Origin: Minisyncoccota bacterium
Lineage (GTDB): Bacteria; Patescibacteriota; Minisyncoccia; Phycocordibacterales; JABMNX01
Length of the DNA: 64,000 bases
NCBI GenBank assembly: GCA_040876885.1
Contig: JBBDOU010000008.1
Coordinates: 42,986-106,985 of the forward strand
Direction of reading: 5' to 3'
Each line of letters begins with the position of its first letter. Within the stretch, counting starts at the first letter, position 1. A program made the translations under genes and the position numbers. Below the pieces are notes generated by a model that worked only from the letters and a program-made list of their open reading frames with translations, had not been told where the DNA came from and did no database searches. Positions 7,737 to 62,095 of this stretch are shown in pieces.

Positions 7737-7811
7737 AGAGAGAATCGGTCACGGTCGCTAAATGTTTTGGGGTCAAGTTTCTAAACTTGCTTTGTTAGTA
7801 GAGAGAATCGA
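7737..7811. repeat. Two partial copies of the tRNA-Gly(TCC) T-loop/3' stem flanking an 18-nt motif TTGGGGTCAAGTTTCTAA
   Basis: agagagaatcg at 7737 and 7798 matches the T-arm of the adjacent tRNA (gtagagagaatcgaac at 7932); the same 18-mer recurs at 12986. Confidence 0.5.
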
Positions 7812-7892
7812 CGACTAGTCACTAAGTAAAATTTTCGTCTTTCAGACTTAATTTTACTTAGTGCTTTTCGTCTAGCCTCAGCTAAATACAAA

Positions 7893-7920
7893 AAGACCCC
7901 ATAAAACGTGGGGTCTTTTT
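7893..7920. terminator. Bidirectional hairpin terminator just 3' of tRNA-Gly(TCC)
   Basis: agacccca-taaaacg-tggggtct with T-runs on both strands. Confidence 0.65.
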
Positions 7921-7928
7921 GTATTTTG

Positions 7929-7999
7929 TGCGGGTAGAGAGAATCGAACTCTCGTCTACTGCTTGGAAGGCAGTCATTCTACCACTAAACTATACCCGC
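7929..7999 (-). tRNA. tRNA-Gly (anticodon TCC)
   Basis: Reverse complement GCGGGTATAGTTTAGTGGTAGAATGACTGCCTTCCAAGCAGTAGACGAGAGTTCGATTCTCTCTACCCGCA folds as a cloverleaf; anticodon loop CTTCCAA. Confidence 0.9.
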
Positions 8000-8407: not shown

Positions 8408-9571
8408 ATGCCGATATTTGCACTTATTCAAGTACTCATCAGTCGTATTGTTATTACAGTGATTGCGGTTCTCTCAGTAGTAGGAATTGGGTCATTTTCT
8501 GAAGCGCCACAGCACCTCGTCATAGAGGAGAAACCGGTGTCCATACAAGAAGAAACAACGCTACCTATCGATGGAGTAGTGGACATCCGAGAGCTCTCTG
8601 AAGAGTCTCTACCCGACCCAGAAGAATCGAAGCCTAAGGAAGCAGTATCGGTCCCTATAGCTGAAGAGACAGTTGAAGTGCCAGTAACCATCCCAATTCA
8701 GGAAGTTACAGTCCCCTTGTCCTTCTCTCAAATCAACACTGATACAGCAAAGACCCTCGTGAACGTGCTGTGCACACAAAATTCAGCGGGCGCAGCGCAT
8801 CCAATCACAGGGAGTGGGGTGATTATTGACCCACGAGGTGTTGTTATCACTAACGCACACGTGGCTCAGTTTTTTCTTTTGAAAGACCATCCGGTTGAAA
8901 ATGCACTCCAATGTACTTTAAGAACAGGAAGTCCTGCTCGAAACACATATACCGCTGAACTTCTGTATATATCACCAGAATGGGTGCGCCTCCACGCAAG
9001 TGACATAAACAATACTGCCCCAAAAGGCACTGGTGAGTACGACTATGCACTCTTGCGCATTACAGGGCGTACTGATCCCCAAGCACAGCTTCCAGCAACC
9101 TTCCCGTTCGTCTCTATTGGTATACATGACGAATCCATACAAACGGGTGATCAAGCGCTCGTTGCAGCGTACCCAGCAGGCTTCCTTGGGGGAGTCTCTA
9201 TTCAAAGAGATCTGTTCTCAGTCTCGAGTGTCGCGACAATAGGAGAGCGGTTTACGTTTCTTGAAAACACCATCGACCTTATTTCCGTTGGAGGGACGGT
9301 CGTCTCACAAGGAGGTTCTTCCGGAGGAGCGGTTGTCTCACAAGAAAATACCTTGATTGGTATAATCGTCACGAGTACGCAAGCTGATACAACTGCCGAG
9401 CGTGACTTACGTGCAATAACCACGGGGTATATAAATCGCTCCCTTATTGAAAACGAAAACACGACAATCGAAGGCCTGTTGTTTGGAGATGTCTTACTTA
9501 AAGCAAGACTGTTTAACTTGGGTGTCGCACCAGCGCTCACTGCATTATTTCTCCCCTATTTAGTGCAATAA
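8408..9571 (+). CDS. Membrane-anchored trypsin-like (S1 family) serine protease
   Basis: N-terminal TM helix, acidic linker, then catalytic His (VITNAHV), Asp (DYALLRI) and Ser (GGSSGGAVV) contexts. Confidence 0.75.
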   Translation: MPIFALIQVLISRIVITVIAVLSVVGIGSFSEAPQHLVIEEKPVSIQEETTLPIDGVVDIRELSEESLPDPEESKPKEAVSVPIAEETVEVPVTIPIQEVTVPLSFSQINTDTAKTLVNVLCTQNSAGAAHPITGSGVIIDPRGVVITNAHVAQFFLLKDHPVENALQCTLRTGSPARNTYTAELLYISPEWVRLHASDINNTAPKGTGEYDYALLRITGRTDPQAQLPATFPFVSIGIHDESIQTGDQALVAAYPAGFLGGVSIQRDLFSVSSVATIGERFTFLENTIDLISVGGTVVSQGGSSGGAVVSQENTLIGIIVTSTQADTTAERDLRAITTGYINRSLIENENTTIEGLLFGDVLLKARLFNLGVAPALTALFLPYLVQ

Positions 9572-9642
9572 TATATACCGTTGACTTTCTTTTCCTCTGA
9601 GAGTAAAACTAAAATAGTATCGAGATTTGAACCAAAAATAAC

Positions 9643-9678
9643 AAAGACCTTTACACAGACGTCTGTGTAAAGGTCTTG
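9643..9678. terminator. Bidirectional palindromic terminator between convergent protease and mscS genes
   Basis: agacctttacacagacg/cgtctgtgtaaaggtct perfect inverted repeat. Confidence 0.65.
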
Positions 9679-9706
9679 CTCCGTTCCTAGGAAGACGTCT
9701 GTCAGA

Positions 9707-10762
9707 TTATTTAAGCAGATGCACTGTCTGCGTCGGGTATGCGAATTCTATCTTTTCTTTTTTAAAGGATTCCAATAACTTTATATTAAGCTCCTCTTGA
9801 AGGTCTACGTAATCGATGTATTCACGTGTTGGTATATAGTACACAACCTCATAATCAAGTGCCGAAGAAGCGAGTGCTTTGAGGTGCACTCTATCAAGCC
9901 GTGCATTCCCCACTTCAAGCCCCGCAAATATTGCTCGCACCATATCGGGAACCGCCTTTATTTTTGGAAGATCGGTCTCATATAAAATACCAAAAGAAAA
10001 CACTGCTCGCCGTTCGGTCATCTTTTTAAGGTTTTGAATACGTGCAGAGGTCAGTTCCTGATTTGAAATTACAATCTCCTCCCCCTGCAGTGCACGAAGT
10101 CGTGTTGTTTTAATACCAATCTTTTCTACTGTACCTGAGTGCTCTCCTACAATAACAAAGTCACCTACCTCAAATGGTTTGTCGAAGTAAATCGCAAACG
10201 AGCTAAACAAATCAGAGAGAATATTCTGCATTGCAAGCGCAATCGCAATACCTCCAATACCAAGACCGGCGACAAGTGAGGTAATGTTAATTCCAAGGTT
10301 TGAAATAACTGCAAGAATCGCAATAATCCACAATCCCCATTTCACTGCACTCCCTAAGAATCGATATGCTTTTTGTCCATCTTTCCCTTCCCGCTTCGCC
10401 CACTTTTCTAATGTGTAATCAATAAGCACATGGAGTGCGGTTACTACCTGGTAGGCAATTACAACAAAAATTAACCCGTCAATCACCCTATCGATAGTAG
10501 TGGTGAAAGATAAGTATTGCAGTGCAAAATACACCGAAAGCATGTAATAAAATGCAGGCTTCACACTTCTGATAATGCGAATTAACGTATCATCAATATC
10601 AGTCTCGGTCTTTTTAGCAAGACTCTCTAGGCGTTTCAAAATCCCCCACTGTAGAAATCTAAATACGAGTGTCAGCACGATAAAAATACCGAGCGCCAAC
10701 AGGTACGCCTGAAGACTATTACCAAAAAATACATACTCACTCCTTTGTAACATTTCAATCAT
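9707..10762 (-). CDS. Mechanosensitive ion channel, MscS family
   Basis: 351 aa; several TM helices followed by the MscS beta-domain region GDFVIVGEHSGTVEKIGIKTTRLRALQGEEIVISN. Confidence 0.85.
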   Translation of the reverse strand: MIEMLQRSEYVFFGNSLQAYLLALGIFIVLTLVFRFLQWGILKRLESLAKKTETDIDDTLIRIIRSVKPAFYYMLSVYFALQYLSFTTTIDRVIDGLIFVVIAYQVVTALHVLIDYTLEKWAKREGKDGQKAYRFLGSAVKWGLWIIAILAVISNLGINITSLVAGLGIGGIAIALAMQNILSDLFSSFAIYFDKPFEVGDFVIVGEHSGTVEKIGIKTTRLRALQGEEIVISNQELTSARIQNLKKMTERRAVFSFGILYETDLPKIKAVPDMVRAIFAGLEVGNARLDRVHLKALASSALDYEVVYYIPTREYIDYVDLQEELNIKLLESFKKEKIEFAYPTQTVHLLK

Positions 10763-10997: not shown

Positions 10998-11045
10998 CAT
11001 GAAAACAAAAAGATGACTAAAGCTAGCCATCTTTTTGTTTTCATG
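10998..11045 (-). terminator. Long hairpin immediately 3' of tRNA-Pro (18-bp perfect inverted repeat)
   Basis: catgaaaacaaaaagatg ... catctttttgttttcatg. Confidence 0.6.
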
Positions 11046-11118
11046 TCGGGATGCCGGGATTCGAACCCGGAGTCGCCCGCTCCCAAAGCGGGAATGTTAG
11101 CCGTTACACTACATCCCG
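11046..11118 (-). tRNA. tRNA-Pro (anticodon TGG)
   Basis: Reverse complement CGGGATGTAGTGTAACGGCTAACATTCCCGCTTTGGGAGCGGGCGACTCCGGGTTCGAATCCCGGCATCCCGA; anticodon loop TTTGGGA. Confidence 0.88.
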
Positions 11119-12796: not shown

Positions 12797-12824
12797 AAGA
12801 CCCTCTGGGTACAGGAGTCTTTTT
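12797..12824 (-). terminator. Imperfect hairpin plus T-run 3' of tRNA-Gly(GCC)
   Basis: aagaccctctgggtacaggagtcttttt; shares the tttttgtattttgtgcgg flank with the tRNA-Gly(TCC) locus. Confidence 0.4.
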
Positions 12825-12832
12825 GTATTTTG

Positions 12833-12903
12833 TGCGGCCAGGGGTAATCGAAACCCCGACTCATCCTTGGCAAGGACGTGTTATACCACTTAACCATGGC
12901 CGC
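12833..12903 (-). tRNA. tRNA-Gly (anticodon GCC)
   Basis: Reverse complement GCGGCCATGGTTAAGTGGTATAACACGTCCTTGCCAAGGATGAGTCGGGGTTTCGATTACCCCTGGCCGCA; perfect D-stem; anticodon loop TTGCCAA. Confidence 0.88.
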
Positions 12904-13007
12904 AAGTGGAGATATTATACTATGTAAATATGTTATTCCAAATTTAAACAGGGAAGTCTGTGGCGCAGATTTATAAGTGATAGTTGTTGGGGTCAAGTTT
13001 CTAAGTT

Positions 13008-13292
13008 CGCCAGGATTCGAACCTTACAGATTCAGTACAGGTTGGCGATATTTTTACAAAATATCTGACAACCTTTTCGAATCCTCTTAGTCGCTACAAA
13101 CAAAATCACCCAATGTTCTCACATCGGGTTCATTTGTTTGTTGTGCGCCTACCAGGATTCGAACCTTACAGATTCAGTACAGGTTGGCGATATTTTTACA
13201 AAATATCTGACAACCTTTTCGAATCCTCTTAGTCGCTACAAACAAAATCACCCAATGTTCTCACATCGGGTTCATTTGTTTGTTGTGCGCCT
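13008..13292. repeat. 142-bp tandem duplication (two units) each carrying the 3' half of tRNA-Arg (T-loop to discriminator) plus 119 bp of downstream spacer
   Basis: caggattcga recurs at 13011, 13153 and 13295 (period 142); units are identical and run directly into the intact tRNA-Arg; the most distal copy (13008-13022) diverges after CCTGG. Confidence 0.85.
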
Positions 13293-13357
13293 ACCAGGAT
13301 TCGAACCCAGAATAACGGTTCCGAAGACCGTTGTGATATCCATTTCACCATAGGCGC
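13286..13357 (-). tRNA. tRNA-Arg (anticodon TCG)
   Basis: Reverse complement GCGCCTATGGTGAAATGGATATCACAACGGTCTTCGGAACCGTTATTCTGGGTTCGAATCCTGGTAGGCGCA; perfect acceptor stem; anticodon loop CTTCGGA. Confidence 0.85.
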
Positions 13358-13420: not shown

Positions 13421-14899
13421 ATGTCAACTATTACACACTCACAAATTCCAAAAGAAATACAAGCGGTAACAGAAGCGCTCGAGAAGGCTGGTTTTGAAGC
13501 GTACCTTATTGGTGGCTGTGTCCGTGACCTCCTTATTGGACGCACCCCTAAGGACTGGGACGTGACCACAAACGCACACCCAGAAAAAATTCAAGAACTT
13601 TTTGAAGAGACATTTTATGAAAACGATTACGGAACAGTGGGTGTTGTTAACGAAACTGAAAACGCGTCACTCAAAGTCGTTGAAATAACTCCATACCGAC
13701 TTGAGACGACATATTCCGATGCACGCCGCCCCGATTCGATTCAGTTCTCAGAGAACCTTGAGGACGACTTAAAGCGTCGAGACTTCACTATGAACGCGAT
13801 AGCCTACAGTGTTTCAACAGGGGGGCTCACAGACCCATATAACGGACAGTCAGACCTTAACGGTAAGAGTATCACCGCTGTAGGAGACCCCTTTGAACGA
13901 TTTGAAGAAGATGCACTTCGCATGCTTCGCGCAATACGGCTCTCAGCGGAACTTGGTTTTACTATTGAAACAAAAACAGCCGAAGCAATTGCAAAGTCTG
14001 CTCCACAGCTTGGAAAAATTGCAAAAGAAAGAATTCGAGATGAATTTCTTCGTATTGTAATGTCTGATAACCCAATGCACGCGCTCATTATTTCAGAAAA
14101 ACTAGGACTACTTCCGTATATTGCACCTGATTTAGAGCGGGGGATTGGTATAGAACAAAACCAAGCACACACCTACGATGTGTTCGAGCATCTCCTGCGC
14201 ACCATGCAACACGGTGCTGATATGCATTGGAATATAGACGTGCGGTTAGCGGGACTCTATCACGATATTTCAAAACCAGAGACACGGAGATGGTCAAAAG
14301 AGAAGGAAGACTGGACGTTTTATGGACATGAGGTTGTTGGCGCACGAGTCGCAAGACGAGCATTTCAAGATTTAAAATTACCAAAGAAACAAACCGACAA
14401 ATTAGTCACAATGGTCCGGTGGCACATGTTTTTCTCTGACCCTGAAAAAATTACACTCTCGGCAGTCAGACGTATGATTAGAAATGTTGGTGAAGAAAAC
14501 ATCTGGGACCTGCTTAACCTGCGTATTTGTGACCGTATTGGTTCGGGGCGTCCTAAAGCACAGCCATTTCGATTTAGAAAATATAAATCAATGGTTGACG
14601 AGGCACTTCGTGACCCTATTTCAGTCGGCATGCTTAAAATAGACGGCGCGGGTGTTATGGAAATCACCGGAGAGAAACCTGGACCACGACTTGGGTACAT
14701 ACTCCACGCGCTTCTTGAGGAGGTGCTTGATGATCCTAAGAGAAACACCGAGGCGTATTTAGAAAAAAAGATAAAAGAGTTACAAGAACTTCCTGAGGAA
14801 ACACTTAAGGCGCACGGAGAACAGGGAAAGCGGAAAAGGGAGGAGTTTGAAGAGGAAGCGGTGAAAGAAATCCGTAAAAAACACTGGGTAGACAAGTAA
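13421..14899 (+). CDS. cca: CCA-adding tRNA nucleotidyltransferase with C-terminal HD domain
   Basis: Pol-beta NTase head signature GGCVRDLLIGRTPKDWDV, RRDFTMNA motif, HD region (YHDISKP). Confidence 0.9.
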   Translation: MSTITHSQIPKEIQAVTEALEKAGFEAYLIGGCVRDLLIGRTPKDWDVTTNAHPEKIQELFEETFYENDYGTVGVVNETENASLKVVEITPYRLETTYSDARRPDSIQFSENLEDDLKRRDFTMNAIAYSVSTGGLTDPYNGQSDLNGKSITAVGDPFERFEEDALRMLRAIRLSAELGFTIETKTAEAIAKSAPQLGKIAKERIRDEFLRIVMSDNPMHALIISEKLGLLPYIAPDLERGIGIEQNQAHTYDVFEHLLRTMQHGADMHWNIDVRLAGLYHDISKPETRRWSKEKEDWTFYGHEVVGARVARRAFQDLKLPKKQTDKLVTMVRWHMFFSDPEKITLSAVRRMIRNVGEENIWDLLNLRICDRIGSGRPKAQPFRFRKYKSMVDEALRDPISVGMLKIDGAGVMEITGEKPGPRLGYILHALLEEVLDDPKRNTEAYLEKKIKELQELPEETLKAHGEQGKRKREEFEEEAVKEIRKKHWVDK

Positions 14900-15535: not shown

Positions 15536-15564
15536 ATTTTAGCATAAAAAGGTGTGCGAGTCAA
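15536..15564 (-). promoter_or_regulatory. Candidate promoter for the NUDIX gene (TTGACT-N17-TAAAAT on the minus strand)
   Basis: Read on the minus strand, about 50 nt upstream of the start codon. Confidence 0.4.
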
Positions 15565-20582: not shown

Positions 20583-21521
20583 CTACTTTCTGCCTTTACC
20601 ATGAAACTGTTTATGTATATCGTGAAGATGTTTATCGGTTACGTGGGTGTAAATCTGAGTCGTCGCGATATTTGCGTGTCCTAAGAGTGCCTGCACTGAA
20701 CGGAGGTCTGCGCCGTTTTGTAGCAAGTCAGTCGCAAATGAGTGTCGGAGCGTGTGTGGTGTCACTCGCTTATCAATCCCTGCTTTGATTGCATATTGTT
20801 TCACTAAACGTTCTACTCCTCGTGTTGAGAGTCGCATGGAACCACTTTCAGTCTCTGCGCGTTTTGCACCACGACCTAAGTAAATAAAGAGTGCCTCATC
20901 AGTGTCTTTTCTTTTATCTAAATATTTTTTAATCGCACTTTTTGCTCCGAGCGATATAAATACTGGACGTACTTTGCCACCTTTACCACGCACAGAGATT
21001 TCGTCACGACTCCAATCAAGATATCGCGAGAGGGAACACAGCTCTGACACACGAAGTCCTGTAGAGAAGAGAAGCTCGAGTATTGCTCTATCGCGGAGTG
21101 CCTTCACCTCGTCTCCCTCGGGGGACTTAAGGAGTCTTTGAAGTTCTGTTGATGAAATGAGACTCAAGTCCCGTGGGGTTTCTTTTGCAAGCTCTATCGT
21201 GTCAGGAGGAAGGACCTCAAAACCACGTTTCACAAGATATTTTAGGAATTGACGAAGCGCAATAAGATAATAATTCTGTGTACGCCGATTAAGCCCCGCA
21301 CGGTTCAGTTCAAGTCGATATTTTCGTATCTTTTCAGTTGTAATATCTTGTACTTCTTTAGCCCCCGAAAAAACAAAAAACCGAGTGACGTACCGGTTAT
21401 AATTTTCAACCGTCTTGAGTGCACGACCACGCTCAATCTCAATATATTCGAGATATTCTTGCTTGAGTGACTTTAAGTTCTGCGCCATTATATTTATTAT
21501 AGCAGTTATTGTGCGACCCAT
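20583..21521 (-). CDS. xerC: Tyrosine site-specific recombinase (XerC/XerD family)
   Basis: C-terminal catalytic region HTLRHSFATDLLQNGADLRSVQALLGHANIATTQIYTHV. Confidence 0.85.
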   Translation of the reverse strand: MGRTITAIINIMAQNLKSLKQEYLEYIEIERGRALKTVENYNRYVTRFFVFSGAKEVQDITTEKIRKYRLELNRAGLNRRTQNYYLIALRQFLKYLVKRGFEVLPPDTIELAKETPRDLSLISSTELQRLLKSPEGDEVKALRDRAILELLFSTGLRVSELCSLSRYLDWSRDEISVRGKGGKVRPVFISLGAKSAIKKYLDKRKDTDEALFIYLGRGAKRAETESGSMRLSTRGVERLVKQYAIKAGIDKRVTPHTLRHSFATDLLQNGADLRSVQALLGHANIATTQIYTHVTDKHLHDIHKQFHGKGRK

Positions 21522-45322: not shown

Positions 45323-46675
45323 GTGGGAATAAAACAACTTTGGGAAAATACACTTGTCGATATTGAACTGAGTATTTCAAAAGCAAACTTTAGTACTTGG
45401 TTTAAAAACACATCTATTCATAAAATAGATTCTGGTGTTGTGTATTTAGGGGTTCCTAATCAATTTGTTAAAGACTGGCTCTCAAATAAGTACCATAAAG
45501 ACATTTTAAAGACACTACGAAGTTTTTCTACAGAGGTGCGCGGTCTTGAATATATTATCTCTAAGGACCAAAAAGGCGCCCTCCATAAAAACCCCACGTC
45601 TGTAAAAGAATTTAACCAAAACTCAGTGGGGGAGCTCCCACTTGATGATTTTTATATTAATAAAAACGATAACTTAAACCCCCGGTATACATTTGATACA
45701 TTTGTAGTGGGGCCTTTCAATCAGCTTGCACACGCGGCAGCTCAGGTTATTACACAAAAACCAGGTATTGTGTACAACCCACTCTTTATTTATGGTTCGA
45801 CGGGACACGGTAAGACCCACCTTATACAATCAGTAGGGAATTATATTAAAAAAGTTAACCCAAATAGAAAAGTATTCTATGTAACCTCTGAACGGTTCGC
45901 GGTTGATTATCTTAATTCAGTTCAGGAAGGGAAAGCAAACACTTTTAAAGAGAAGTACCGACAATATGACGTTCTTATTATGGACGATATACAATTCCTC
46001 TCTGATAAAGAGAAGACCCAAGAGGAACTATTCCATTTATTTAATGCGTTATACGACAACAATAAGCAAATAATTTTTTCTTCTGATAAACACCCTAACT
46101 ACATTCCAGGGCTTGAAGACAGGCTAAAATCACGGTTTAACGCTGGTATGATTGCGGATATCCCTGCACCAGATCATGAGTCACGTATGGCGATTCTGAA
46201 ATCTAAAACTGCACAGAATAATTTTCTACTCCCTGATGACTTAGTTTCGTATATTTCAAGTGAGGTTCAGGGGAATATTAGAGAGTTAGAAGGTGTCTTA
46301 AACTCAATAATTTTTCAATCACAAGTAAAAGGGAGAATCCCCAACCAAACAGAAATTCGGGCGATTATTAAAAACAGCTCTAAACCTAAAAAATCAGTAT
46401 CAGCAAAAGATGTGATTAAAAAGATTGCTGATTTTTATGAAATAAACGAAAACAGTATCTACGAAAAGACTCGAAAAAAAGAAATTGTTAAACCAAGACA
46501 GCTAATTATGTATATCTTGCGAGAAGATTTTGGTGTGTCTTATCCAAGTATTGGAGAAAAATTAGGAGGAAGAGACCACACAACAGTAATACACTCTTGT
46601 GAGAAAATTAAAAACGACCTAAAAACAAACCCGACCCTTGGGCAGGAGATAGACCAAATACGGGCATTGTTATAA
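45323..46675 (+). CDS. dnaA: Chromosomal replication initiator DnaA
   Basis: Walker A GSTGHGKTHL, AAA+ sensor motifs, C-terminal DNA-binding domain. Confidence 0.95.
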   Translation: MGIKQLWENTLVDIELSISKANFSTWFKNTSIHKIDSGVVYLGVPNQFVKDWLSNKYHKDILKTLRSFSTEVRGLEYIISKDQKGALHKNPTSVKEFNQNSVGELPLDDFYINKNDNLNPRYTFDTFVVGPFNQLAHAAAQVITQKPGIVYNPLFIYGSTGHGKTHLIQSVGNYIKKVNPNRKVFYVTSERFAVDYLNSVQEGKANTFKEKYRQYDVLIMDDIQFLSDKEKTQEELFHLFNALYDNNKQIIFSSDKHPNYIPGLEDRLKSRFNAGMIADIPAPDHESRMAILKSKTAQNNFLLPDDLVSYISSEVQGNIRELEGVLNSIIFQSQVKGRIPNQTEIRAIIKNSSKPKKSVSAKDVIKKIADFYEINENSIYEKTRKKEIVKPRQLIMYILREDFGVSYPSIGEKLGGRDHTTVIHSCEKIKNDLKTNPTLGQEIDQIRALL

Positions 46676-46889
46676 ATAAAAACATGTTCATTGACTGTGG
46701 AAAAAAAGTTAATATATAAAAAGTAATCAACAAGAGTATTATGAAAAAAGAAACCTATAAAATAAAATCAACTTTTTATACACACGTTGTTGGTAAATTA
46801 TTTAACAGAATATACTTATTTATAAACATTAAAAATACTTTTCAACATATACACAGTACTAATAGTAATAATAAATTATATATACATAT
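46676..46889. promoter_or_regulatory. AT-rich dnaA-dnaN intergenic region; candidate DNA-unwinding element of oriC
   Basis: About 80% A+T with a further TTATACACA box (46777) and tgtggaaaa. Confidence 0.45.
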
Positions 46890-47993
46890 ATGAAAATAAC
46901 CTGTGAAAAAAAAGATCTATTAAACAGCTTAGTTATTACAGAAAAAATAACTGGTACTAATCCAACACTACCAATCCTTAGTTGTGTGTTATTAATTGTG
47001 AAAGATTCAATTCTTACTGTACGTTCAACAAATCTTGAGCTTGGTATTGAAGTATATATACCAGTCACTTCAGAAGAAGATGGAATAGTTGCTATTCCGG
47101 GTCATATTTTTTATAACACTATACAAAATACACACGATAATTCTATTACTCTTGAAACACAAAAAGATACACTTGTTATTCAAACAAAACATAGTAAAAC
47201 AGTACTTAATACACAAATATATGATGATTTTCCATCATTACCAATAATTCAAAACAACACAACATATACATTAAAAACAGAGAATATTATTAAAGGTATA
47301 GAATCAGTTGTGTATAGTGCGTCTAATTCAACTATTAAACCAGAGCTTTCAAGTGTGTATGTGTATGAACATGATAATAAAATATTTTTTGTTGCAACAG
47401 ACTCTTTTCGATTAGCTGAGAAAACAACACATATTAAAGAAAAAAATACACTTAACCAATCATTTCTACTTCCATTAAGAAACGCATTAGAGGTGGTGAG
47501 AATTTTAAACCAATTACCAGATGATAATATTTTAATTAAAGTAGATAATAACCAAATATCCCTTGAAGGTAAAAATTTATTTATCACATCAAGAATTATT
47601 GATGGTGTATTTCCTGACTATAAACAAATTATTCCTAAAGATTATATTTCAGAGGTAATTGTATTAAAACAGGATTTAGTTAATGTTTTTAAGAAAATAA
47701 GTATTTTTTCTGATAAATTTGGACAGATATCTATCGATATACAACCAAAGAAAAAAAACGTGACCATACATACAAATAACAATACAATAGGGAAAACAAG
47801 TGATGGTATTGATGCTGCGGTGACTGGAGAAGCGTTGGTAATGAGTTTTAATTACCGATATATATACGATTGTCTTACCTCAATACATTCAGACAGTATT
47901 ACGTTACTTTTTACTGGTATTGGTAAACCACTTATTATAAAAGGTGTCTCTGATGAGTCATTTTTGTATCTCGTAATGCCGATGAATAAGTAA
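46890..47993 (+). CDS. dnaN: DNA polymerase III beta sliding clamp
   Basis: 367 aa with three-domain clamp architecture (MKITCEKKDLLNSL..., C-terminal LVMPM); directly after dnaA; about 28% GC. Confidence 0.88.
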   Translation: MKITCEKKDLLNSLVITEKITGTNPTLPILSCVLLIVKDSILTVRSTNLELGIEVYIPVTSEEDGIVAIPGHIFYNTIQNTHDNSITLETQKDTLVIQTKHSKTVLNTQIYDDFPSLPIIQNNTTYTLKTENIIKGIESVVYSASNSTIKPELSSVYVYEHDNKIFFVATDSFRLAEKTTHIKEKNTLNQSFLLPLRNALEVVRILNQLPDDNILIKVDNNQISLEGKNLFITSRIIDGVFPDYKQIIPKDYISEVIVLKQDLVNVFKKISIFSDKFGQISIDIQPKKKNVTIHTNNNTIGKTSDGIDAAVTGEALVMSFNYRYIYDCLTSIHSDSITLLFTGIGKPLIIKGVSDESFLYLVMPMNK

Positions 47994-52111: not shown

Positions 52112-52228
52112 CTACTCTTCGTCATCGTCTCCATCTGTGTCTGTATCTAGGTCCATATCATCGTCTCCATCTGTGTCTGTATCTAGGTCCAAGTCGTCAT
52201 CTTCTAGCTCATCGTCAAAATAAAACAT
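52112..52228 (-). CDS. Small, highly acidic repeat peptide (38 aa), unannotated
   Basis: ATG...TAG ORF MFYFDDELEDDDLDLDTDTDGDDDMDLDTDTDGDDDEE, below the ORF-track length cutoff; lies immediately upstream of the CCCCGCA terminator. Confidence 0.3.
   Translation of the reverse strand: MFYFDDELEDDDLDLDTDTDGDDDMDLDTDTDGDDDEE
52120..52191. repeat. 36/37-bp tandem direct repeat (x2) inside the acidic mini-ORF
   Basis: atcgtctccatctgtgtctgtatctaggtcca occurs twice in tandem. Confidence 0.8.
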
Positions 52229-52442
52229 ACGTTTTTTATTTTAAATTTTAAATTTATACTAACCGACCCACAATCGTAAGAGTTTACGAAAATGTGACCC
52301 TATAGTTGTACCAGAACTTAGTACTTTTTCAATACCCCAATATTTTTTTTGTGGATAATCTGTGTATATCTCAAAAAACACAAACGAGGCTTCTGTTAAG
52401 CGACCTGCTCTGGCACTTCCATTTTTATACTCGCTCCACTCG

Positions 52443-52925
52443 TTAAAAAATAAGTCGCTCTGATGCGAGGCACGTAAGCCCAACAGCAATTGCATCATAC
52501 TCATCATCGAGTGCTATTTCCTTCCGTATTTCAATAAGGTGAGGGATCATTTTTGCCACCTGCTCTTTAGTGCTTTTCCCATAGCCAGATACCGCACTTT
52601 TGATCTGAAGGGGGGTATATTCAAAGATTAAAAGGTTTTCTTTTTTAGCTATATAGGTGATAACACCAATAACTTCTGTGACTGAAAGCGCTGTTTTTTG
52701 GTTTGTATTAAAAAAAAGCTGTTCTATCGCAATCACGTTTGGGGAGTATGTCTCAATAAGTCTTTCAATCTCTAATCCAATTTGGAGTAGGCGATCTTTG
52801 AAGGAGTCTTGTGTATCTGTCCTAAAGCAGTCTGAATACAAAAGAGTATCCTTTGGGGTATTTGTTTTTTCTATAATCGCAATACCAAGTCGTTCGTACC
52901 CCGGATCTATTGAAAGGACTCTCAT
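52443..52925 (-). CDS. ruvC: Holliday junction resolvase RuvC
   Basis: MRVLSIDPGYERLGIAIIE opening; catalytic acidic residues in RuvC spacing. Confidence 0.85.
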   Translation of the reverse strand: MRVLSIDPGYERLGIAIIEKTNTPKDTLLYSDCFRTDTQDSFKDRLLQIGLEIERLIETYSPNVIAIEQLFFNTNQKTALSVTEVIGVITYIAKKENLLIFEYTPLQIKSAVSGYGKSTKEQVAKMIPHLIEIRKEIALDDEYDAIAVGLTCLASERLIF

Positions 52926-61190: not shown

Positions 61191-61263
61191 CCGCCCGTAG
61201 CTCAGTTGGTAGAGCAGCTCCCTTTTAAGGAGAATGTCGTAGGTTCAAGTCCTACCGGGCGGA
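61191..61263 (+). tRNA. tRNA-Lys (anticodon TTT)
   Basis: CCGCCCGTAGCTCAGTTGGTAGAGCAGCTCCCTTTTAAGGAGAATGTCGTAGGTTCAAGTCCTACCGGGCGGA; anticodon loop CTTTTAA. Confidence 0.85.
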
Positions 61264-61264
61264 C

Positions 61265-62095
61265 ATGAATGAGTTTAAACAGCAGTGTATTAAGTTGAGA
61301 GAAAAAGACCACACACTTTCTGAAATCATGCAGATAACAGGAAGGTCAAAAACATCTATCTATTTTCACATACAGAACATTGCACTTAGTTCTCTAAAAC
61401 AGAAAGAAATTCGAGATGCAAGTCGCACGAGAGTTCTTGATCTTTCACAAGCAAGGAAAGGTAAAAGCAAAAAACCTTTTAAGAAGTTTCCTCAGTGGAA
61501 CATTCAGGCAGTTTCTTTGGTGGCACACTTACTTTTTGGTGGAGAAATTCAGTCAAATAAATGTGTCTATAGTAACCGAAGCGTTGCTTTATGTAAGAAG
61601 GTCGAAAATTCTATGTGTCTGTTTTATGATTTTGAGCCTAAACGGCGGTATAACAAACAGACGGGAGTAACAAGTATCAGTTATTTTAATGTTGAGCTTA
61701 CATCATATCTTAAGCATAAAGCGAAGGCATTGCTTATTGAGATTGAATTTTTTCCTGAAGAATTTAAGCGAGAATTTTTGCGCGCATTTTTTGACGATGA
61801 AGGGTGTATAGATTTTAAACCTCATAGCGGTACGCGACGAGTTCGTGGGTATCAAAAAGATACAACAATACTATATCTTGTGTGGAAACTTCTTCGAGAT
61901 TTTAATATTAACGCAAAGATTCAACTTCCTAATGAAGTCGTAATATCAAAAAAAGAAAATTTACTAAAGTTTCAAAAAGAAATAGGTTTTTCTATTGGAG
62001 TTAAAATGAATGGAAATAGACCAAATAGCGTCTGGAAAAAACATATGGAAAAAAGTGATATTCTTAAAAAGGCTATAGACTCGTACGGTTCTTAA
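61265..62095 (+). CDS. Free-standing double-motif LAGLIDADG homing endonuclease with N-terminal HTH
   Basis: Motif 2 FLRAFFDDEGCI is canonical; motif 1 LVAHLLFGGEI is degenerate; HTH LSEIMQITGRSKTSIYFHI; begins 2 nt after tRNA-Lys. Confidence 0.65.
   Translation: MNEFKQQCIKLREKDHTLSEIMQITGRSKTSIYFHIQNIALSSLKQKEIRDASRTRVLDLSQARKGKSKKPFKKFPQWNIQAVSLVAHLLFGGEIQSNKCVYSNRSVALCKKVENSMCLFYDFEPKRRYNKQTGVTSISYFNVELTSYLKHKAKALLIEIEFFPEEFKREFLRAFFDDEGCIDFKPHSGTRRVRGYQKDTTILYLVWKLLRDFNINAKIQLPNEVVISKKENLLKFQKEIGFSIGVKMNGNRPNSVWKKHMEKSDILKKAIDSYGS

What the first reader, a model, noticed from the sequence alone, without database searches (positions are those of the whole stretch)
7737..7930. Shared 18-nt motif TTGGGGTCAAGTTTCTAA next to partial tRNA T-loop copies at two different tRNA loci
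The 18-mer occurs at 7768-7785 and 12986-13003 (the core GTCAAGTTT also occurs at 15563 and 16322, in -35 contexts). In both places it is followed within 5-14 nt by a partial copy of the T-loop of the neighbouring tRNA: agagagaatcgac for tRNA-Gly(TCC), and ccaggattcgaacc for tRNA-Arg. At the second locus the motif, read on the minus strand, supplies a TTGACC -35 box 16 nt before TATAAA, pointing at tRNA-Gly(GCC). At the first locus no -10 follows. Two readings are possible:
- the motif is a conserved tRNA-operon promoter or UP-like element and the first locus is a decayed copy;
- the two loci are matching scars of a tRNA-targeting element.
Basis: partly seen in the sequence, partly recalled or inferred. 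Interest (0 to 1): 0.55.

Follow-up and report, generated by a model that had tools for sequence, protein, structure and literature searches.

The report
tRNA-tail-targeting miniature insertion elements, decayed copies
The shared 18 bases are the end piece of an apparently undescribed family of ~110-200-base non-coding structured elements that sit in the tails of tRNA genes of Patescibacteria, carry a built-in stretch complementary to the tRNA they sit beside, and leave a duplicated tRNA tail behind; this window holds worn-down copies plus a freshly duplicated sister element.

Summary
In detail: the 18-mer occurs exactly twice (7767-7784, 12987-13004), each beside partial T-arm copies of the neighbouring tRNA. 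It is not a promoter. In tRNA orientation it reads TTAGAAACTTGACCCCAA. That is the complete 3' strand of helix P3 of a conserved non-coding module found downstream of co-oriented tRNA genes of at least 15 amino-acid types in Patescibacteria genomes and metagenomes. Each module has a terminator-like hairpin, an 11-22 nt segment complementary to the adjacent tRNA (T-loop/T-stem, or 3' end plus trailer), and covarying helices P2 and P3. Directly after ...GACCCC comes a copy of the tRNA from position 57 to its end. The guide tracks the functional tRNA, while the downstream copy decays like a displaced fragment. Tandem arrays occur, including a perfect 142-nt duplication of a sister-family module at the window's tRNA-Arg. 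Rfam and the searchable literature hold nothing similar. Best reading: small ORF-less insertion elements that pick their site in tRNA genes by base pairing and restore the tRNA 3' end. The window's two 18-mers are 5'-truncated remnants. Mobility and mechanism are inferred, not shown.

The parts
7928..7999 (-). tRNA-Gly(TCC), intact; target or host gene of locus A
   Evidence: ARAGORN; Rfam tRNA 75.9 bits
7884..7926 (-). T1: terminator-like hairpin directly after the tRNA (18-bp perfect stem)
   Evidence: Inverted repeat I12; fold. Its 5' half is nearly identical to the hairpin after tRNA-Gly(GCC) (family D2).
7864..7883 (-). Degenerate guide region (AGCTGAGGCTAGACGAAAAG); compare the family consensus GAGAATCGAAAG
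   Evidence: Read and compared with modules. A weak match, so the assignment is inferred.
7820..7863 (-). P3-type hairpin with the CTAAG/CTTAG motif (class 1a), CACTAAGTAAAATT...AATTTTACTTAGTG
   Evidence: Fold. Same motif as in L004, L014 and L026 modules.
7798..7811 (-). Displaced copy of the tRNA-Gly(TCC) T-loop and T-stem 3' strand (TCGATTCTCTCTAC)
   Evidence: 14-nt exact match to the tRNA
7767..7784 (-). The 18-mer: a 5'-truncated remnant, namely the complete 3' strand of family helix P3 (TTAGAAACTT-GA-CCCC-AA). Here it is folded into a mini-palindrome, CAAGTTTAGAAACTTG (7774-7789).
   Evidence: CM partial hit at 7779-7804; fold
7748..7761 (-). TTAGCGACCGTGAC: remnant of a class-1a P3 3' strand, which in relatives directly precedes the tRNA copy (L014: GTTAGCGACTGTGAC|CGATTCTCCC)
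7737..7747 (-). Second displaced T-loop copy (CGATTCTCTCT)
   Evidence: 11-nt exact match to the tRNA
13285..13357 (-). tRNA-Arg(TCG), intact; host gene of locus B
   Evidence: ARAGORN; Rfam
13010..13307 (-). Two perfect 142-nt tandem units of a class-2 (sister family) module, each starting with the tRNA-Arg T-arm-to-3'-end segment
   Evidence: the repeat finder D1 and TRF, 100% identity; Logan contig break; fold z = -7.08
13143..13165 (-). Within the distal unit: copy of the tRNA-Arg 3' end (GGTTCGAATCCTGGTAGGCGCAC)
   Evidence: 23-nt exact match
13096..13141 (-). T1 terminator-like hairpin of the unit (also at 13238-13283). Homologous to T1 of elements at other tRNAs (L105, L119).
   Evidence: Inverted repeats I20/I21; terminator scan; sequences
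13076..13094 (-). Guide segments. GCGACTA is complementary to the acceptor 3' strand; AGGATTCGAA is complementary to the T-loop and T-stem 3' strand.
   Evidence: they pair with the tRNA 3' segment across T1 in the MFE fold
13040..13074 (-). Helix P2 of the class-2 unit
   Evidence: Fold
13018..13034 (-). Hairpin P3' (GAATC-TGTAA-GGTTC) abutting the flank copy; covaries in relatives
13010..13023 (-). Terminal, truncated T-arm copy (GGTTCGAATCCTGG)
12987..13004 (-). The 18-mer, second copy: a 5'-truncated P3 3'-strand remnant after a 5-nt linker
   Evidence: The CM aligns 12980-13086 to the full model, but weakly (11.3 bits, E = 0.39).
12914..12941 (-). Own promoter of tRNA-Gly(GCC), TTGGAA-16-TATAAT. 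Not part of the element; it shows that the 18-mer is not needed as a promoter.

Best explanation
The 18-mer is the 3' strand of helix P3 of a family of small (about 110-200 nt), ORF-less, structured insertion elements. In Patescibacteria these lodge in the 3' part of tRNA genes.

Layout of an intact element, in tRNA orientation:
1. a replacement copy of the tRNA from T-loop position 57 to the 3' end;
2. its own terminator-like hairpin, T1;
3. a guide, often split by hairpin P0, that is complementary to the tRNA 3' region;
4. helices P2 and P3, ending in ...TTAGAAACTTGACCCC.

The element lies between tRNA positions 56 and 57 (class T) or 72 and 73 (class E). The junction always falls 3 nt into the sequence complementary to the guide. 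The tRNA gene stays intact. Its original 3' segment is pushed downstream, where it decays; these are the 'partial T-loop copies'.

I infer that the guide selects the insertion site by base pairing, as RNA or single-stranded DNA. I also infer that an unidentified activity, either a trans-acting enzyme or the RNA itself, performs the insertion. Repeated insertion or unequal exchange then gives tandem arrays.

In this window:
- tRNA-Gly(TCC) carries two decayed modules.
- tRNA-Arg(TCG) carries two perfect 142-nt copies of a sister-family (class 2) module.
- Each array ends in a 5'-truncated remnant of the P3 strand, which is the 18-mer.

Shown: the anatomy, the association with tRNAs, the guide complementarity, the covariation, and the decay of the distal copy. 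Inferred: mobility, the role of the guide in targeting, and the chemistry.
For: - Association with tRNAs. Of 135 exact 16-mer hits, 80 share the long conserved context ...GAGTCCGGGGAGGAAGTTCTTA-hairpin-TTAGAAACTTGACCCC. Of these, 57 have a co-oriented tRNA within 450 nt upstream, against 5 of the 55 context-less hits.
- tRNA copy. In 27 of 53 distinct modules, the 18 nt after the motif are at least 94% identical to tRNA positions 57-74 of that tRNA. At least 15 amino-acid types are represented.
- Guide. The mean longest exact complement to the cognate tRNA end is 10.2 nt, against 3.6 for non-cognate ends (maximum 4.7 in 300 permutations). There are two target classes. The junction lies 3 nt into the target in 26 of 37 modules.
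- Structure. P1, P2 and P3 are supported: 95.2% of cells are paired against 81.8% in shuffles, and the covariation score is 0.355 against 0.117 (0 of 500 shuffles reach it; slid controls at most 0.086).
- Distribution. The covariance model finds 17 members in related species, 16 of them directly downstream of a co-oriented tRNA. All are in Patescibacteria loci and none in the non-CPR loci. Several can occur on one contig.
- Which copy is under selection. The guide matches the functional tRNA better than the distal copy in 6 of 6 informative cases, and the distal copy is mutated or truncated in 10 of 26 modules.
- The element carries its own parts. T1, the start of the trailer and P0 are homologous between elements at different tRNAs and in different genomes.
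- Tandem arrays are seen in the window, L075, L102, L105 and L163.
- Composites and truncated copies like those in the window occur in L119, L091, L113 and L103.
- Occupancy. Orthologous tRNA loci are patchily occupied. In L017 and L011 the tRNA-Arg spacer is compact; in L026 it holds a module.
- Folding. The window units fold as the model predicts (z = -7.1 and -7.3).
Against: - No insertion event, empty-site/filled-site pair between close strains, excised form or transcript was observed.
- No mobilising enzyme was identified. Of the window's ORFs, 30 of 61 were checked: no RT or transposase, only a Xer-type recombinase.
- How the tRNA-specific replacement segment and guide would change together when the element moves to a new tRNA type is unexplained.
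- T1 looks like a functional terminator, so the core may be poorly transcribed from the tRNA promoter.
- A few members (L088, L094) are not next to any tRNA.
- The window's own copies score weakly with the model (11.3 and 7.6 bits).
- A 17/18 copy of the 18-mer at the syntenic site in distant L014 could mean that the remnant is under selection for some other role.
Confidence: 0.55

Rival explanations
1. The modules are non-mobile, cis-acting structured RNAs in tRNA 3' trailers. The antisense segment pairs with the tRNA 3' region of the same precursor and governs processing, quality control, termination or read-through. The sense and antisense tRNA-like parts are kept matched to the tRNA by selection or gene conversion.
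For: - The modules are always co-oriented with, and directly downstream of, tRNA genes.
- The guide tracks the functional tRNA.
- The helices covary and the junction nucleotides are invariant, as in functional RNAs.
- The guide extends the T1 hairpin into the tRNA 3' end, which resembles an alternative-pairing switch.
- Modules at syntenic tRNAs persist across distant species.
Against: - This reading does not explain why a sense copy of the tRNA 3' end follows the module at a junction fixed by the guide, or why that copy decays.
- It does not explain perfect tandem arrays, 5'-truncated remnants or patchy occupancy.
- T1, which looks like a terminator, precedes the core, so most tRNA transcripts would end before it.
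- Near-identical cores occur beside many different tRNAs and in different genomes. That fits spread better than independent evolution.
Confidence: 0.2
2. The tRNA fragments are ordinary attL/attR-type scars. They were left by tyrosine-integrase elements (prophages or islands) that integrated into the T-loop sublocation of tRNA genes and were later deleted. The 18-mer would be a leftover of the attP arm.
For: - Direct repeats running from the T-loop to the tRNA 3' end are the classic signature of integrase-mediated integration into tRNA genes (established knowledge).
- In the class-2 unit the repeat includes the whole T-loop.
- A Xer-type tyrosine recombinase is encoded in the window.
Against: - No integrase or cargo gene is adjacent in any of the more than 100 cases.
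- The intervening DNA is a conserved 110-200 nt structured core with covarying helices, not random deletion remains.
- The internal segment complementary to the target has no role in att sites.
- In class 1 the identity block starts at position 56/57, inside the 7-nt T-loop. The overlap region would therefore be mismatched for a tyrosine recombinase.
- None of the 10 viral-contig hits shows the conserved context.
Confidence: 0.1
3. The 18-mer is a conserved promoter or UP-like element of tRNA operons (TTGACC as the -35 box), and locus A is a decayed copy.
For: - The motif contains TTGACC.
- At locus B a TATAAA follows and tRNA-Gly(GCC) lies downstream.
- A 17/18 copy lies at the same spacer in L014.
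Against: - The spacer is 15 nt and the site is not called. tRNA-Gly(GCC) has a better promoter of its own just upstream of the gene start.
- Locus A points into a convergent terminator, and no promoter is called there.
- In about 80 family members the motif is followed by a tRNA 3' fragment or an A-rich flank and a terminator, with no consistent -10 box.
Confidence: 0.05

Closest known systems
Integrase-borne genetic elements that integrate into the T-loop sublocation of tRNA genes (attL/attR with a tRNA 3'-end duplication; sublocation classes described by Williams, NAR 2002, cited from my own knowledge)
   Same: The inserted DNA supplies a replacement tRNA 3' end. The original 3' segment, from the T-loop to the end, is left as a direct repeat on the far side. 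Tandem accretion is possible.
   Different: Here the insert is only 110-200 nt and has no integrase or any ORF. It has a conserved, covarying structured core and an internal segment complementary to the target. The identity block starts inside the T-loop (56/57).
Group II introns of class C (IIC) and group I introns
   Same: An internal guide (compare EBS or IGS) is complementary to the sequence on both sides of the insertion point. The elements are associated with terminator hairpins (IIC) and with tRNA genes. Group I introns are common in Patescibacteria tRNAs (PMC13011429).
   Different: The modules are far too small. There is no match to Rfam intron models and no domain V or P3-P9 core. 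The host gene is not interrupted, because a duplicate 3' segment is present. The junction pair is C-G, not the U.G of group I.
IS200/IS605-family elements and their ORF-less derivatives (PATEs)
   Same: Small, hairpin-rich and strand-specific. In that family the cleavage and target sites are recognised by base pairing with an internal guide in single-stranded DNA (Barabas et al. 2008, cited from my own knowledge).
   Different: Their guides are 4 nt and their targets are tetra- or pentanucleotides, and they make no target duplication. Here the guide is 11-22 nt and tRNA-specific, and 8-22 nt of the target is duplicated. No TnpA or TnpB gene was seen.
IS110/IS1111 elements with bridge or seek RNAs
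   Same: A structured non-coding RNA encoded in the element specifies the target by base pairing, and the target is reprogrammable.
   Different: Those elements encode a DEDD recombinase, carry two guide loops (target and donor), and make no long duplication. No such ORF or loop architecture is seen here. This comparison was not tested beyond inspecting the anatomy.
MITEs and SINE-like non-autonomous elements (including eukaryotic Dada transposons that target small-RNA genes; PMC8869645)
   Same: Short, non-coding and multi-copy, presumably mobilised in trans. They prefer RNA genes as safe havens. 5'-truncated copies recall SINE/LINE behaviour.
   Different: No terminal inverted repeats of the transposase type, no poly-A or RT signature, and no known bacterial precedent. 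The target-matched guide is unique.

Membership tests
tRNA-integrating integrase elements (att scars) | Direct repeat of the tRNA 3' segment flanking the insert | tested here: met
   12-34 nt copies lie 100-240 nt downstream of the tRNAs. In 27 of 53 modules the 18-nt copies are at least 94% identical.
tRNA-integrating integrase elements (att scars) | Tyrosine or serine integrase gene (and cargo) between the repeats or adjacent | tested here: not met
   The inserts are 110-200 nt with no ORF. The genes next to the window's loci are hup, MscS and the CCA-adding enzyme.
tRNA-integrating integrase elements (att scars) | The identity block covers the whole 7-nt crossover (T-loop) | tested here: not met
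   In class 1 the copy starts at position 56/57, preceded by CCC instead of TTC. The feature is met only for the class-2 unit of the window.
Group II / group I introns | Catalytic core recognisable by Rfam covariance models | tested here: not met
   Only tRNA hits appear at the gathering threshold and at E up to 10.
Group II / group I introns | Internal guide complementary to both sides of the insertion site | tested here: met
   The guide spans 3 nt to the left and 8-10 nt to the right of the junction.
Group II / group I introns | The host gene is interrupted and needs splicing | tested here: not met
   The upstream tRNA is intact by ARAGORN and Rfam.
IS200/IS605 / PATE | TnpA (Y1 HUH) or TnpB gene in the element or genome | tested here: inconclusive
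   None was found among the 30 of 61 window ORFs scanned. The rest of the genome was not available.
IS200/IS605 / PATE | No target-site duplication; a 4-5 nt target motif | tested here: not met
   8-22 nt of the target is duplicated, and the targets are tRNA-specific.
MITE | Terminal inverted repeats plus a short fixed-length TSD | tested here: not met
   The ends are the tRNA segment or T1 on one side and the P3 strand on the other, which are not inverted repeats of each other.
Sigma-70 promoter / UP element | -35 and -10 hexamers 16-18 nt apart, upstream of a gene, consistently across copies | tested here: not met
   The spacer is 15 nt at locus B and there is none at locus A. No consistent -10 box appears in about 80 family members.
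Any Rfam 15 RNA family | Score at or above the family's gathering threshold | tested here: not met
Structured RNA (or ssDNA) element, generic | Helices supported by compensatory changes beyond the shuffled and slid controls | tested here: met
Mobile element, generic | Presence/absence polymorphism with precise junctions between close relatives | not testable with these tools
   Only distant species representatives and anonymous metagenome contigs were available.
IS110/IS1111 bridge- or seek-RNA elements | DEDD recombinase ORF and a two-loop guide RNA | not tested
   No ORF lies inside the modules, and the anatomy differs on inspection.

The most novel reading that the evidence does not exclude
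A new class of ORF-less, nucleic-acid-guided mobile elements. A roughly 100-nt structured core carries a reprogrammable 11-22 nt guide that chooses the insertion point in a tRNA gene, and occasionally at other terminators. The element brings its own replacement tRNA 3' end and terminator, so the host gene survives. Insertion would be carried out either by the RNA itself (a small ribozyme with reverse-splicing-like chemistry) or by an unknown trans-acting host or element enzyme. If so, this is a compact natural system for programmable site-specific insertion in the smallest bacterial genomes.
Probability: 0.35. Interest if true: 0.9.

Novelty: categorically new. Interest (0 to 1): 0.78.

Why it matters
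Patescibacteria have tiny, streamlined genomes. Yet they keep many copies of this module, several per 14 kb on some contigs, beside tRNA genes of nearly every type.

If the modules are guide-directed insertion elements, they would be a new way for selfish DNA to use tRNA genes as safe havens. They would also be a compact, naturally reprogrammable targeting device, comparable in concept to group II introns, bridge RNAs or omega RNAs, but far smaller and without an ORF.

If instead they are cis-acting RNAs, they reveal an unknown layer of tRNA 3'-end biology in a major, poorly understood part of the bacterial tree.

There are practical consequences either way:
- The displaced tRNA fragments and tandem units confuse tRNA annotation.
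- They break short-read assemblies; the Logan contig ends exactly at the repeat.
- They can be mistaken for prophage att sites.

Tried and rejected
- **Promoter/UP reading.** Rejected by the consensus scans and by the context of about 80 family members.
- **The extra 9-mer cores at 15560 and 16321 as part of the pattern.** Rejected: they are within chance.
- **Assembly artefact.** The 142-nt period equals k+1 for k = 141 assemblers, so I checked. Locus A is identical in an independent k=31 assembly. The Logan contig also breaks exactly where a real duplication predicts. An artefact is unlikely, but the two assemblies may rest on the same reads.
- **A tRNA-like RNA with a full acceptor stem.** A segment resembling the acceptor 5' strand is present in some modules (L033, L022, L153) but not consistently. 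I dropped it as a defining feature.
- **Hammerhead, other small ribozymes, group I/II introns, tmRNA, SRP, RNase P.** No Rfam support. The core motifs do not fit a hammerhead on inspection.
- **Box C/D or H/ACA-like guide RNA.** The box motifs are not in the required positions.
- **Retro-derivation from mature tRNA.** Only about 4 of 27 distal copies have CCA where the gene lacks it. That is not above chance.
- **Viral origin.** All 10 viral-contig hits lack the family context.
- **Strand asymmetry of G.U against A.C pairs, to decide between RNA and DNA.** Inconclusive: about 10 against 7.
- **Mobilising enzyme in the window.** None found among 30 ORFs.
- **Literature.** Five full-text searches, including the motif sequence itself, found no description. 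The paper on Patescibacteria tRNA introns (PMC13011429) concerns canonical group I introns at position 35/36.
Full report
**1. The observation**

The window is a Patescibacteria (Paceibacteria-like) chromosome segment from MAG GCA_040904045.1, contig JBBDUD010000007.1. It carries RNase Y, HU, the CCA-adding enzyme and MsrAB, and dnaA-dnaN.

The 18-mer TTGGGGTCAAGTTTCTAA occurs exactly twice, at 7767-7784 and 12987-13004. No additional match appears with up to 3 mismatches, and 0.12 matches are expected by chance.

All four nearby tRNA genes are on the minus strand: Gly-TCC 7928-7999, Pro 11045-11118, Gly-GCC 12832-12903 and Arg-TCG 13285-13357. In tRNA orientation the motif reads TTAGAAACTTGACCCCAA and lies downstream of tRNA-Gly(TCC) and tRNA-Arg.

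Three more features belong to the picture:
- a third T-loop copy at 7737-7747;
- a perfect 142-nt x 2.1 tandem repeat at 13010-13307 that begins inside the T-arm of tRNA-Arg;
- a terminator-like hairpin directly after each tRNA.

Locus A is identical in an independent k=31 Logan assembly. A second Logan contig begins exactly at the 30-mer shared by the repeat unit and the tRNA, where a real duplication would make the assembly graph branch.

The two other GTCAAGTTT 9-mers are within chance.

**2. The pattern extends beyond the window**

I fetched 80 loci around homologues of the CCA-adding enzyme in other species. In many Patescibacteria loci, the tRNA-Gly, -Pro and -Arg genes are followed 100-240 nt downstream by a 12-34 nt exact copy of their own 3' end.

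The 16-nt core of the motif recurs in L014 and L028, and with two mismatches in L033. It is always co-oriented with, and downstream of, a tRNA. About 0.0006 matches would be expected by chance in that much sequence.
- In L028 the motif abuts a 19-nt copy of the tRNA-Gly(GCC) 3' end, which is followed by a terminator.
- In L014 a 17/18 copy sits in the same tRNA-Arg / tRNA-Gly(GCC) spacer as in the window.

**3. Collection-wide search**

A 16-mer is expected by chance a few hundred times in a collection of that size, so I separated true relatives from chance hits by their flanks.
- 80 of 135 instances share the long context ...cGAGtCCGGGGAGGAAGTTCTTA-[hairpin]-TTAGAAACTTGACCCC.
- 57 of those 80 have a co-oriented tRNA within 450 nt upstream, and many of the rest lie on truncated contigs. 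Only 5 of the 55 context-less hits do.
- The tRNAs cover at least 15 amino-acid types.
- In 27 of 53 distinct modules, the 18 nt immediately after ...GACCCC are at least 94% identical to the last 18 nt of that tRNA. The copy always begins at T-loop position 57.
- None of the viral hits has the family context.

**4. Anatomy**

Whole modules show the following order after the tRNA:
1. a trailer with a terminator-like hairpin, T1;
2. often a segment complementary to the acceptor 3' strand;
3. a conserved hairpin, P0 (GCAAACTGCTTTGC);
4. a segment complementary to the T-loop and T-stem 3' strand (for example GGAGAATCGAA);
5. AAAGACGGAG, then helix P2 with an invariant GGA/GAG internal loop;
6. GAGUCC, then helix P3 (GGGG-AGG-AAGUUCUUA ... 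UUAGAAACUU-GA-CCCC);
7. directly after P3, the tRNA copy.

A second class of modules, class E, lacks the T-loop copy. Their guide is complementary to the last 5 nt of the tRNA plus about 6 nt of the trailer. In L127, for example, ACCTATGTGCC is the reverse complement of GGCAC|ATAGGT. In these modules the motif is followed by AC and an A-rich flank, as at both window sites.

Quantitatively:
- The longest exact guide-target complement averages 10.2 nt for the cognate tRNA, against 3.6 nt for non-cognate tRNA ends (maximum 4.7 over 300 permutations).
- Targets start at tRNA offset -21 (T54) or around -5.
- The flank joined to the module's 3' end starts 3 nt into the target in 26 of 37 cases.

**5. 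Structure**

An alignment of 30 modules (A2) gives an RNAalifold consensus of three helices around one junction.
- P1, the guide paired with the 3' flank, has 5-14 double changes per pair.
- P2 covaries: one pair shows AU 20, GC 6, UA 3, CG 1; another shows CG 11, GC 7, AU 7, UA 2.
- P3 is invariant.

In the control, 95.2% of cells are paired against 81.8% in shuffles. The covariation score is 0.355 against 0.117. None of 500 shuffles reaches it, and the slid structures score at most 0.086.

A covariance model built from this alignment (R1) gave these results:
- 17 members in the species representatives. Sixteen lie directly downstream of a co-oriented tRNA, and the seventeenth is at a locus edge. 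All are in Patescibacteria loci and none in the Bdellovibrionales, Gammaproteobacteria, Treponema or Myxococcales loci of the same set.
- 93 hits on the metagenome contigs, often several per contig.
- Only weak matches in the window itself: 12980-13086 aligns over the full model length at 11.3 bits, and 7779-7804 as a P3 fragment.

The window therefore holds decayed copies.

**6. What the window loci are**

*Locus A* has, in order:
1. tRNA-Gly(TCC) and T1;
2. a degenerate guide;
3. a P3 hairpin of the CTAAG/CTTAG variant (class 1a, as in L004, L014, L017 and L026);
4. T-loop copy 1;
5. a 13-nt linker and the 18-mer;
6. TTAGCGACCGTGAC, a class-1a P3 strand almost identical to that of L014;
7. 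T-loop copy 2;
8. the convergent hup terminator.

It amounts to two decayed modules in tandem.

*Locus B* has, in order:
1. tRNA-Arg(TCG);
2. two perfect 142-nt units of a sister family (class 2);
3. a 14-nt T-arm copy;
4. the linker CGAAC;
5. the 18-mer.

Each class-2 unit has this order: tRNA 3' segment, T1, guide GCGACTA..AGGATTCGAA, P2, GTAC, hairpin P3'. The class-2 hairpin P3' covaries in 8 relatives; all 5 pairs show compensatory changes.

The unit folds as predicted, with the tRNA segment pairing with the guide across T1 (z = -7.08). Locus A also folds far better than shuffles (z = -7.28).

The same composite, a module followed by a truncated T-arm copy and then a P3 piece carrying the 18-mer, occurs in L119, L091, L113, L103 and L014.

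**7. Which pairing is maintained**

Where the tRNA's own 3' segment and the distal copy differ, the guide matches the tRNA in 6 of 6 cases. The distal copy is mutated or truncated in 10 of 26 modules.

The distal copy thus behaves as a displaced, unselected fragment. The P1 helix seen by RNAalifold reflects a common origin (target duplication) rather than selection on the flank.

T1, the start of the trailer and P0 are homologous between elements at different tRNAs and in different genomes. Examples:
- window Arg, L105 Glu and L119 Arg-CCT share AACAAATGAACC...GGTGATTTTGTTT;
- L118 Leu resembles L177 Tyr;
- AGGTAC follows the tRNA in L128, L142 and L177.

These parts therefore travel with the core.

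Taken together, the unit is:
1. the replacement tRNA segment 57-74;
2. T1;
3. the guide, split by P0;
4. P2;
5. P3.

It is placed at 56|57, or at 72|73 in class E. The original 3' segment and its terminator are pushed downstream.

**8. Mechanism (inferred)**

The guide is complementary to the uninterrupted target across the junction, 3 nt to the left and 8-10 nt to the right. That is the logic of intron guide sequences (IGS, EBS) and of the guide-directed site choice of IS200/IS605.

I therefore take the modules to be small insertion elements that choose their site by base pairing and avoid harm by restoring the tRNA 3' end.

Supporting observations:
- perfect tandem arrays (window, L075, L102, L105, L163);
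- patchy occupancy of orthologous tRNAs;
- the compact tRNA-Arg spacers of L017 and L011 against the occupied one of L026;
- frequent remnants consisting only of the element's 3' end.

Those 3'-end-only remnants could reflect 5'-truncated insertion of the target-primed reverse-transcription type. They could equally reflect deletions constrained by the need to keep the tRNA intact.

Several points remain open:
- whether the active form is RNA or single-stranded DNA; G.U and A.C counts do not decide (about 10 against 7);
- which enzyme acts, or whether a ribozyme does;
- how the guide and the replacement segment change together when a new tRNA type is colonised.

In the window, no RT or transposase was found among 30 of 61 ORFs. 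One Xer-type recombinase is present. According to PMC13011429, 95 complete Patescibacteria genomes lack group II introns but are rich in group I introns.

**9. Rivals**

- *Fixed cis-acting trailer RNA.* This explains the orientation, the covariation and the guide-tRNA matching. It does not explain the decaying sense copy at a junction set by the guide, the arrays, the truncated remnants, or near-identical cores beside many different tRNAs.
- *Classical integrase scars.* These explain the direct repeats. They do not explain the conserved structured core, the internal complement, the lack of any integrase in more than 100 cases, or a junction inside the T-loop.
- *Promoter.* This fails on spacing (15 nt), on locus A, on the presence of a good promoter just upstream of the tRNA-Gly(GCC) start, and on the family context.

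One item remains unexplained. The 17/18 copy at the syntenic position in L014, whose neighbouring protein is only about 63% identical, may mean independent insertion at a hot spot or selection on the remnant.

**10. Comparison with what is known, and novelty**

Rfam 15 has no matching family at the gathering threshold or at E up to 10. Five full-text searches, including one for the motif sequence itself, found no description.

The modules share single features with several known kinds of element:
- tRNA-integrating islands: duplication of the tRNA 3' end;
- group I and II introns: a guide spanning the insertion site, and an association with terminators;
- IS200/IS605: base-pair-directed site choice and hairpins;
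- bridge-RNA elements: a programmable guide;
- MITEs and SINEs: small, non-coding and multi-copy.

They fail a tested defining feature of every one of these families that I could test; the bridge-RNA elements were compared by anatomy only (see the membership table). I therefore rate the family as categorically new. Its mobility and chemistry are inferred, and a cis-regulatory role is not excluded.

For this window, the verdict on the finding is as follows. The scar reading is right and the promoter reading is wrong. The two 18-mers are 5'-truncated remnants of one element family, lying at the distal ends of two arrays of related modules.

Noticed in passing
window 61191-62095: A 276-aa ORF with a LAGLIDADG_3 domain (E = 4.6e-08) starts at 61265, directly after tRNA-Lys(TTT) (61191-64). 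It may be a free-standing or intron-derived homing endonuclease next to a tRNA gene.
   Followed up: no
window 45323-47993: dnaA (45323-46675) and dnaN (46890-47993). GC falls to 0.297 in the 46-48 kb bin. This is probably the replication origin region.
   Followed up: partly
window 7910-7999 vs 12814-12903: The two Gly tRNAs share nearly identical sequence for about 18 nt beyond the gene (CAAAATACAAAAAGAC[C/T]CC, the 5' half of their terminator hairpins). Yet tRNA-Gly(GCC) has no module. Either this is a shared ancestral terminator or only T1 of a lost element remains.
   Followed up: partly
window 20583-21521 (-): A 312-aa XerC/XerD-type tyrosine recombinase (Phage_integrase E = 1e-43, plus a SAM-like N domain). 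It is probably the housekeeping dif recombinase, but it is the only recombinase seen in the window.
   Followed up: no
window 52122-52191 and 52422-52449: A perfect 36-nt x 1.9 tandem repeat lies downstream of the TyrRS gene. A small hairpin, TTTTTAACGAGTGGAGCGAGTATAAAAA, follows a gene end and resembles the distal loop of family helix P3 (CM hit of 15.8 bits).
   Followed up: partly
Family modules in L086, L112, L036 and others; window 52430-52445: A recurrent loop motif GA-RY-(N2-3)-RY-GA, for example GAGCGAAGCGA or GAGCGTAGCGA. It has a covarying 2-bp stem flanked by GA/GA. The GCGNAGC core is known as an unusually stable DNA mini-hairpin (from my own knowledge), which may hint at single-stranded DNA forms.
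   Followed up: no
L075 about 9369-9790; L102 7604-7898; L105 6314-6615; L163 13368-13717: Other genomes carry tandem arrays of 2 to 3 or more identical modules, with periods of 168-205 nt. The L105 array is not next to an intact tRNA.
   Followed up: partly
L088 10209-10593; L094 9223-9266: Family members with no tRNA within 2.5 kb. They sit after terminators, in L094 that of a protein-coding gene, and their guide extends the terminator stem. This may be a third target class, with terminators as such as the target.
   Followed up: partly
L123 about 400-690; L157 about 1650-1850: Modules whose upstream tRNA (Asp in L123; the type in L157 was not determined) is missed by ARAGORN. The cause appears to be a long insert that looks like a group I intron, so introns and modules can occupy the same tRNA gene.
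   Followed up: no
L004, L006, L026, L032, L046, L049 (tRNA-Pro loci): A third kind of tRNA-linked duplicate. About 50-65 nt after tRNA-Pro come a hairpin and a small second hairpin, and then a 23-34 nt copy running from the anticodon-stem/variable region to the 3' end. This layout differs from classes 1 and 2.
   Followed up: no
window tRNA genes; window 13421-14899: The tRNA genes checked in the window (Gly-TCC, Gly-GCC, Arg-TCG) do not encode CCA; at most C74 is present. The CCA-adding enzyme gene lies immediately next to tRNA-Arg, in divergent orientation.
   Followed up: no
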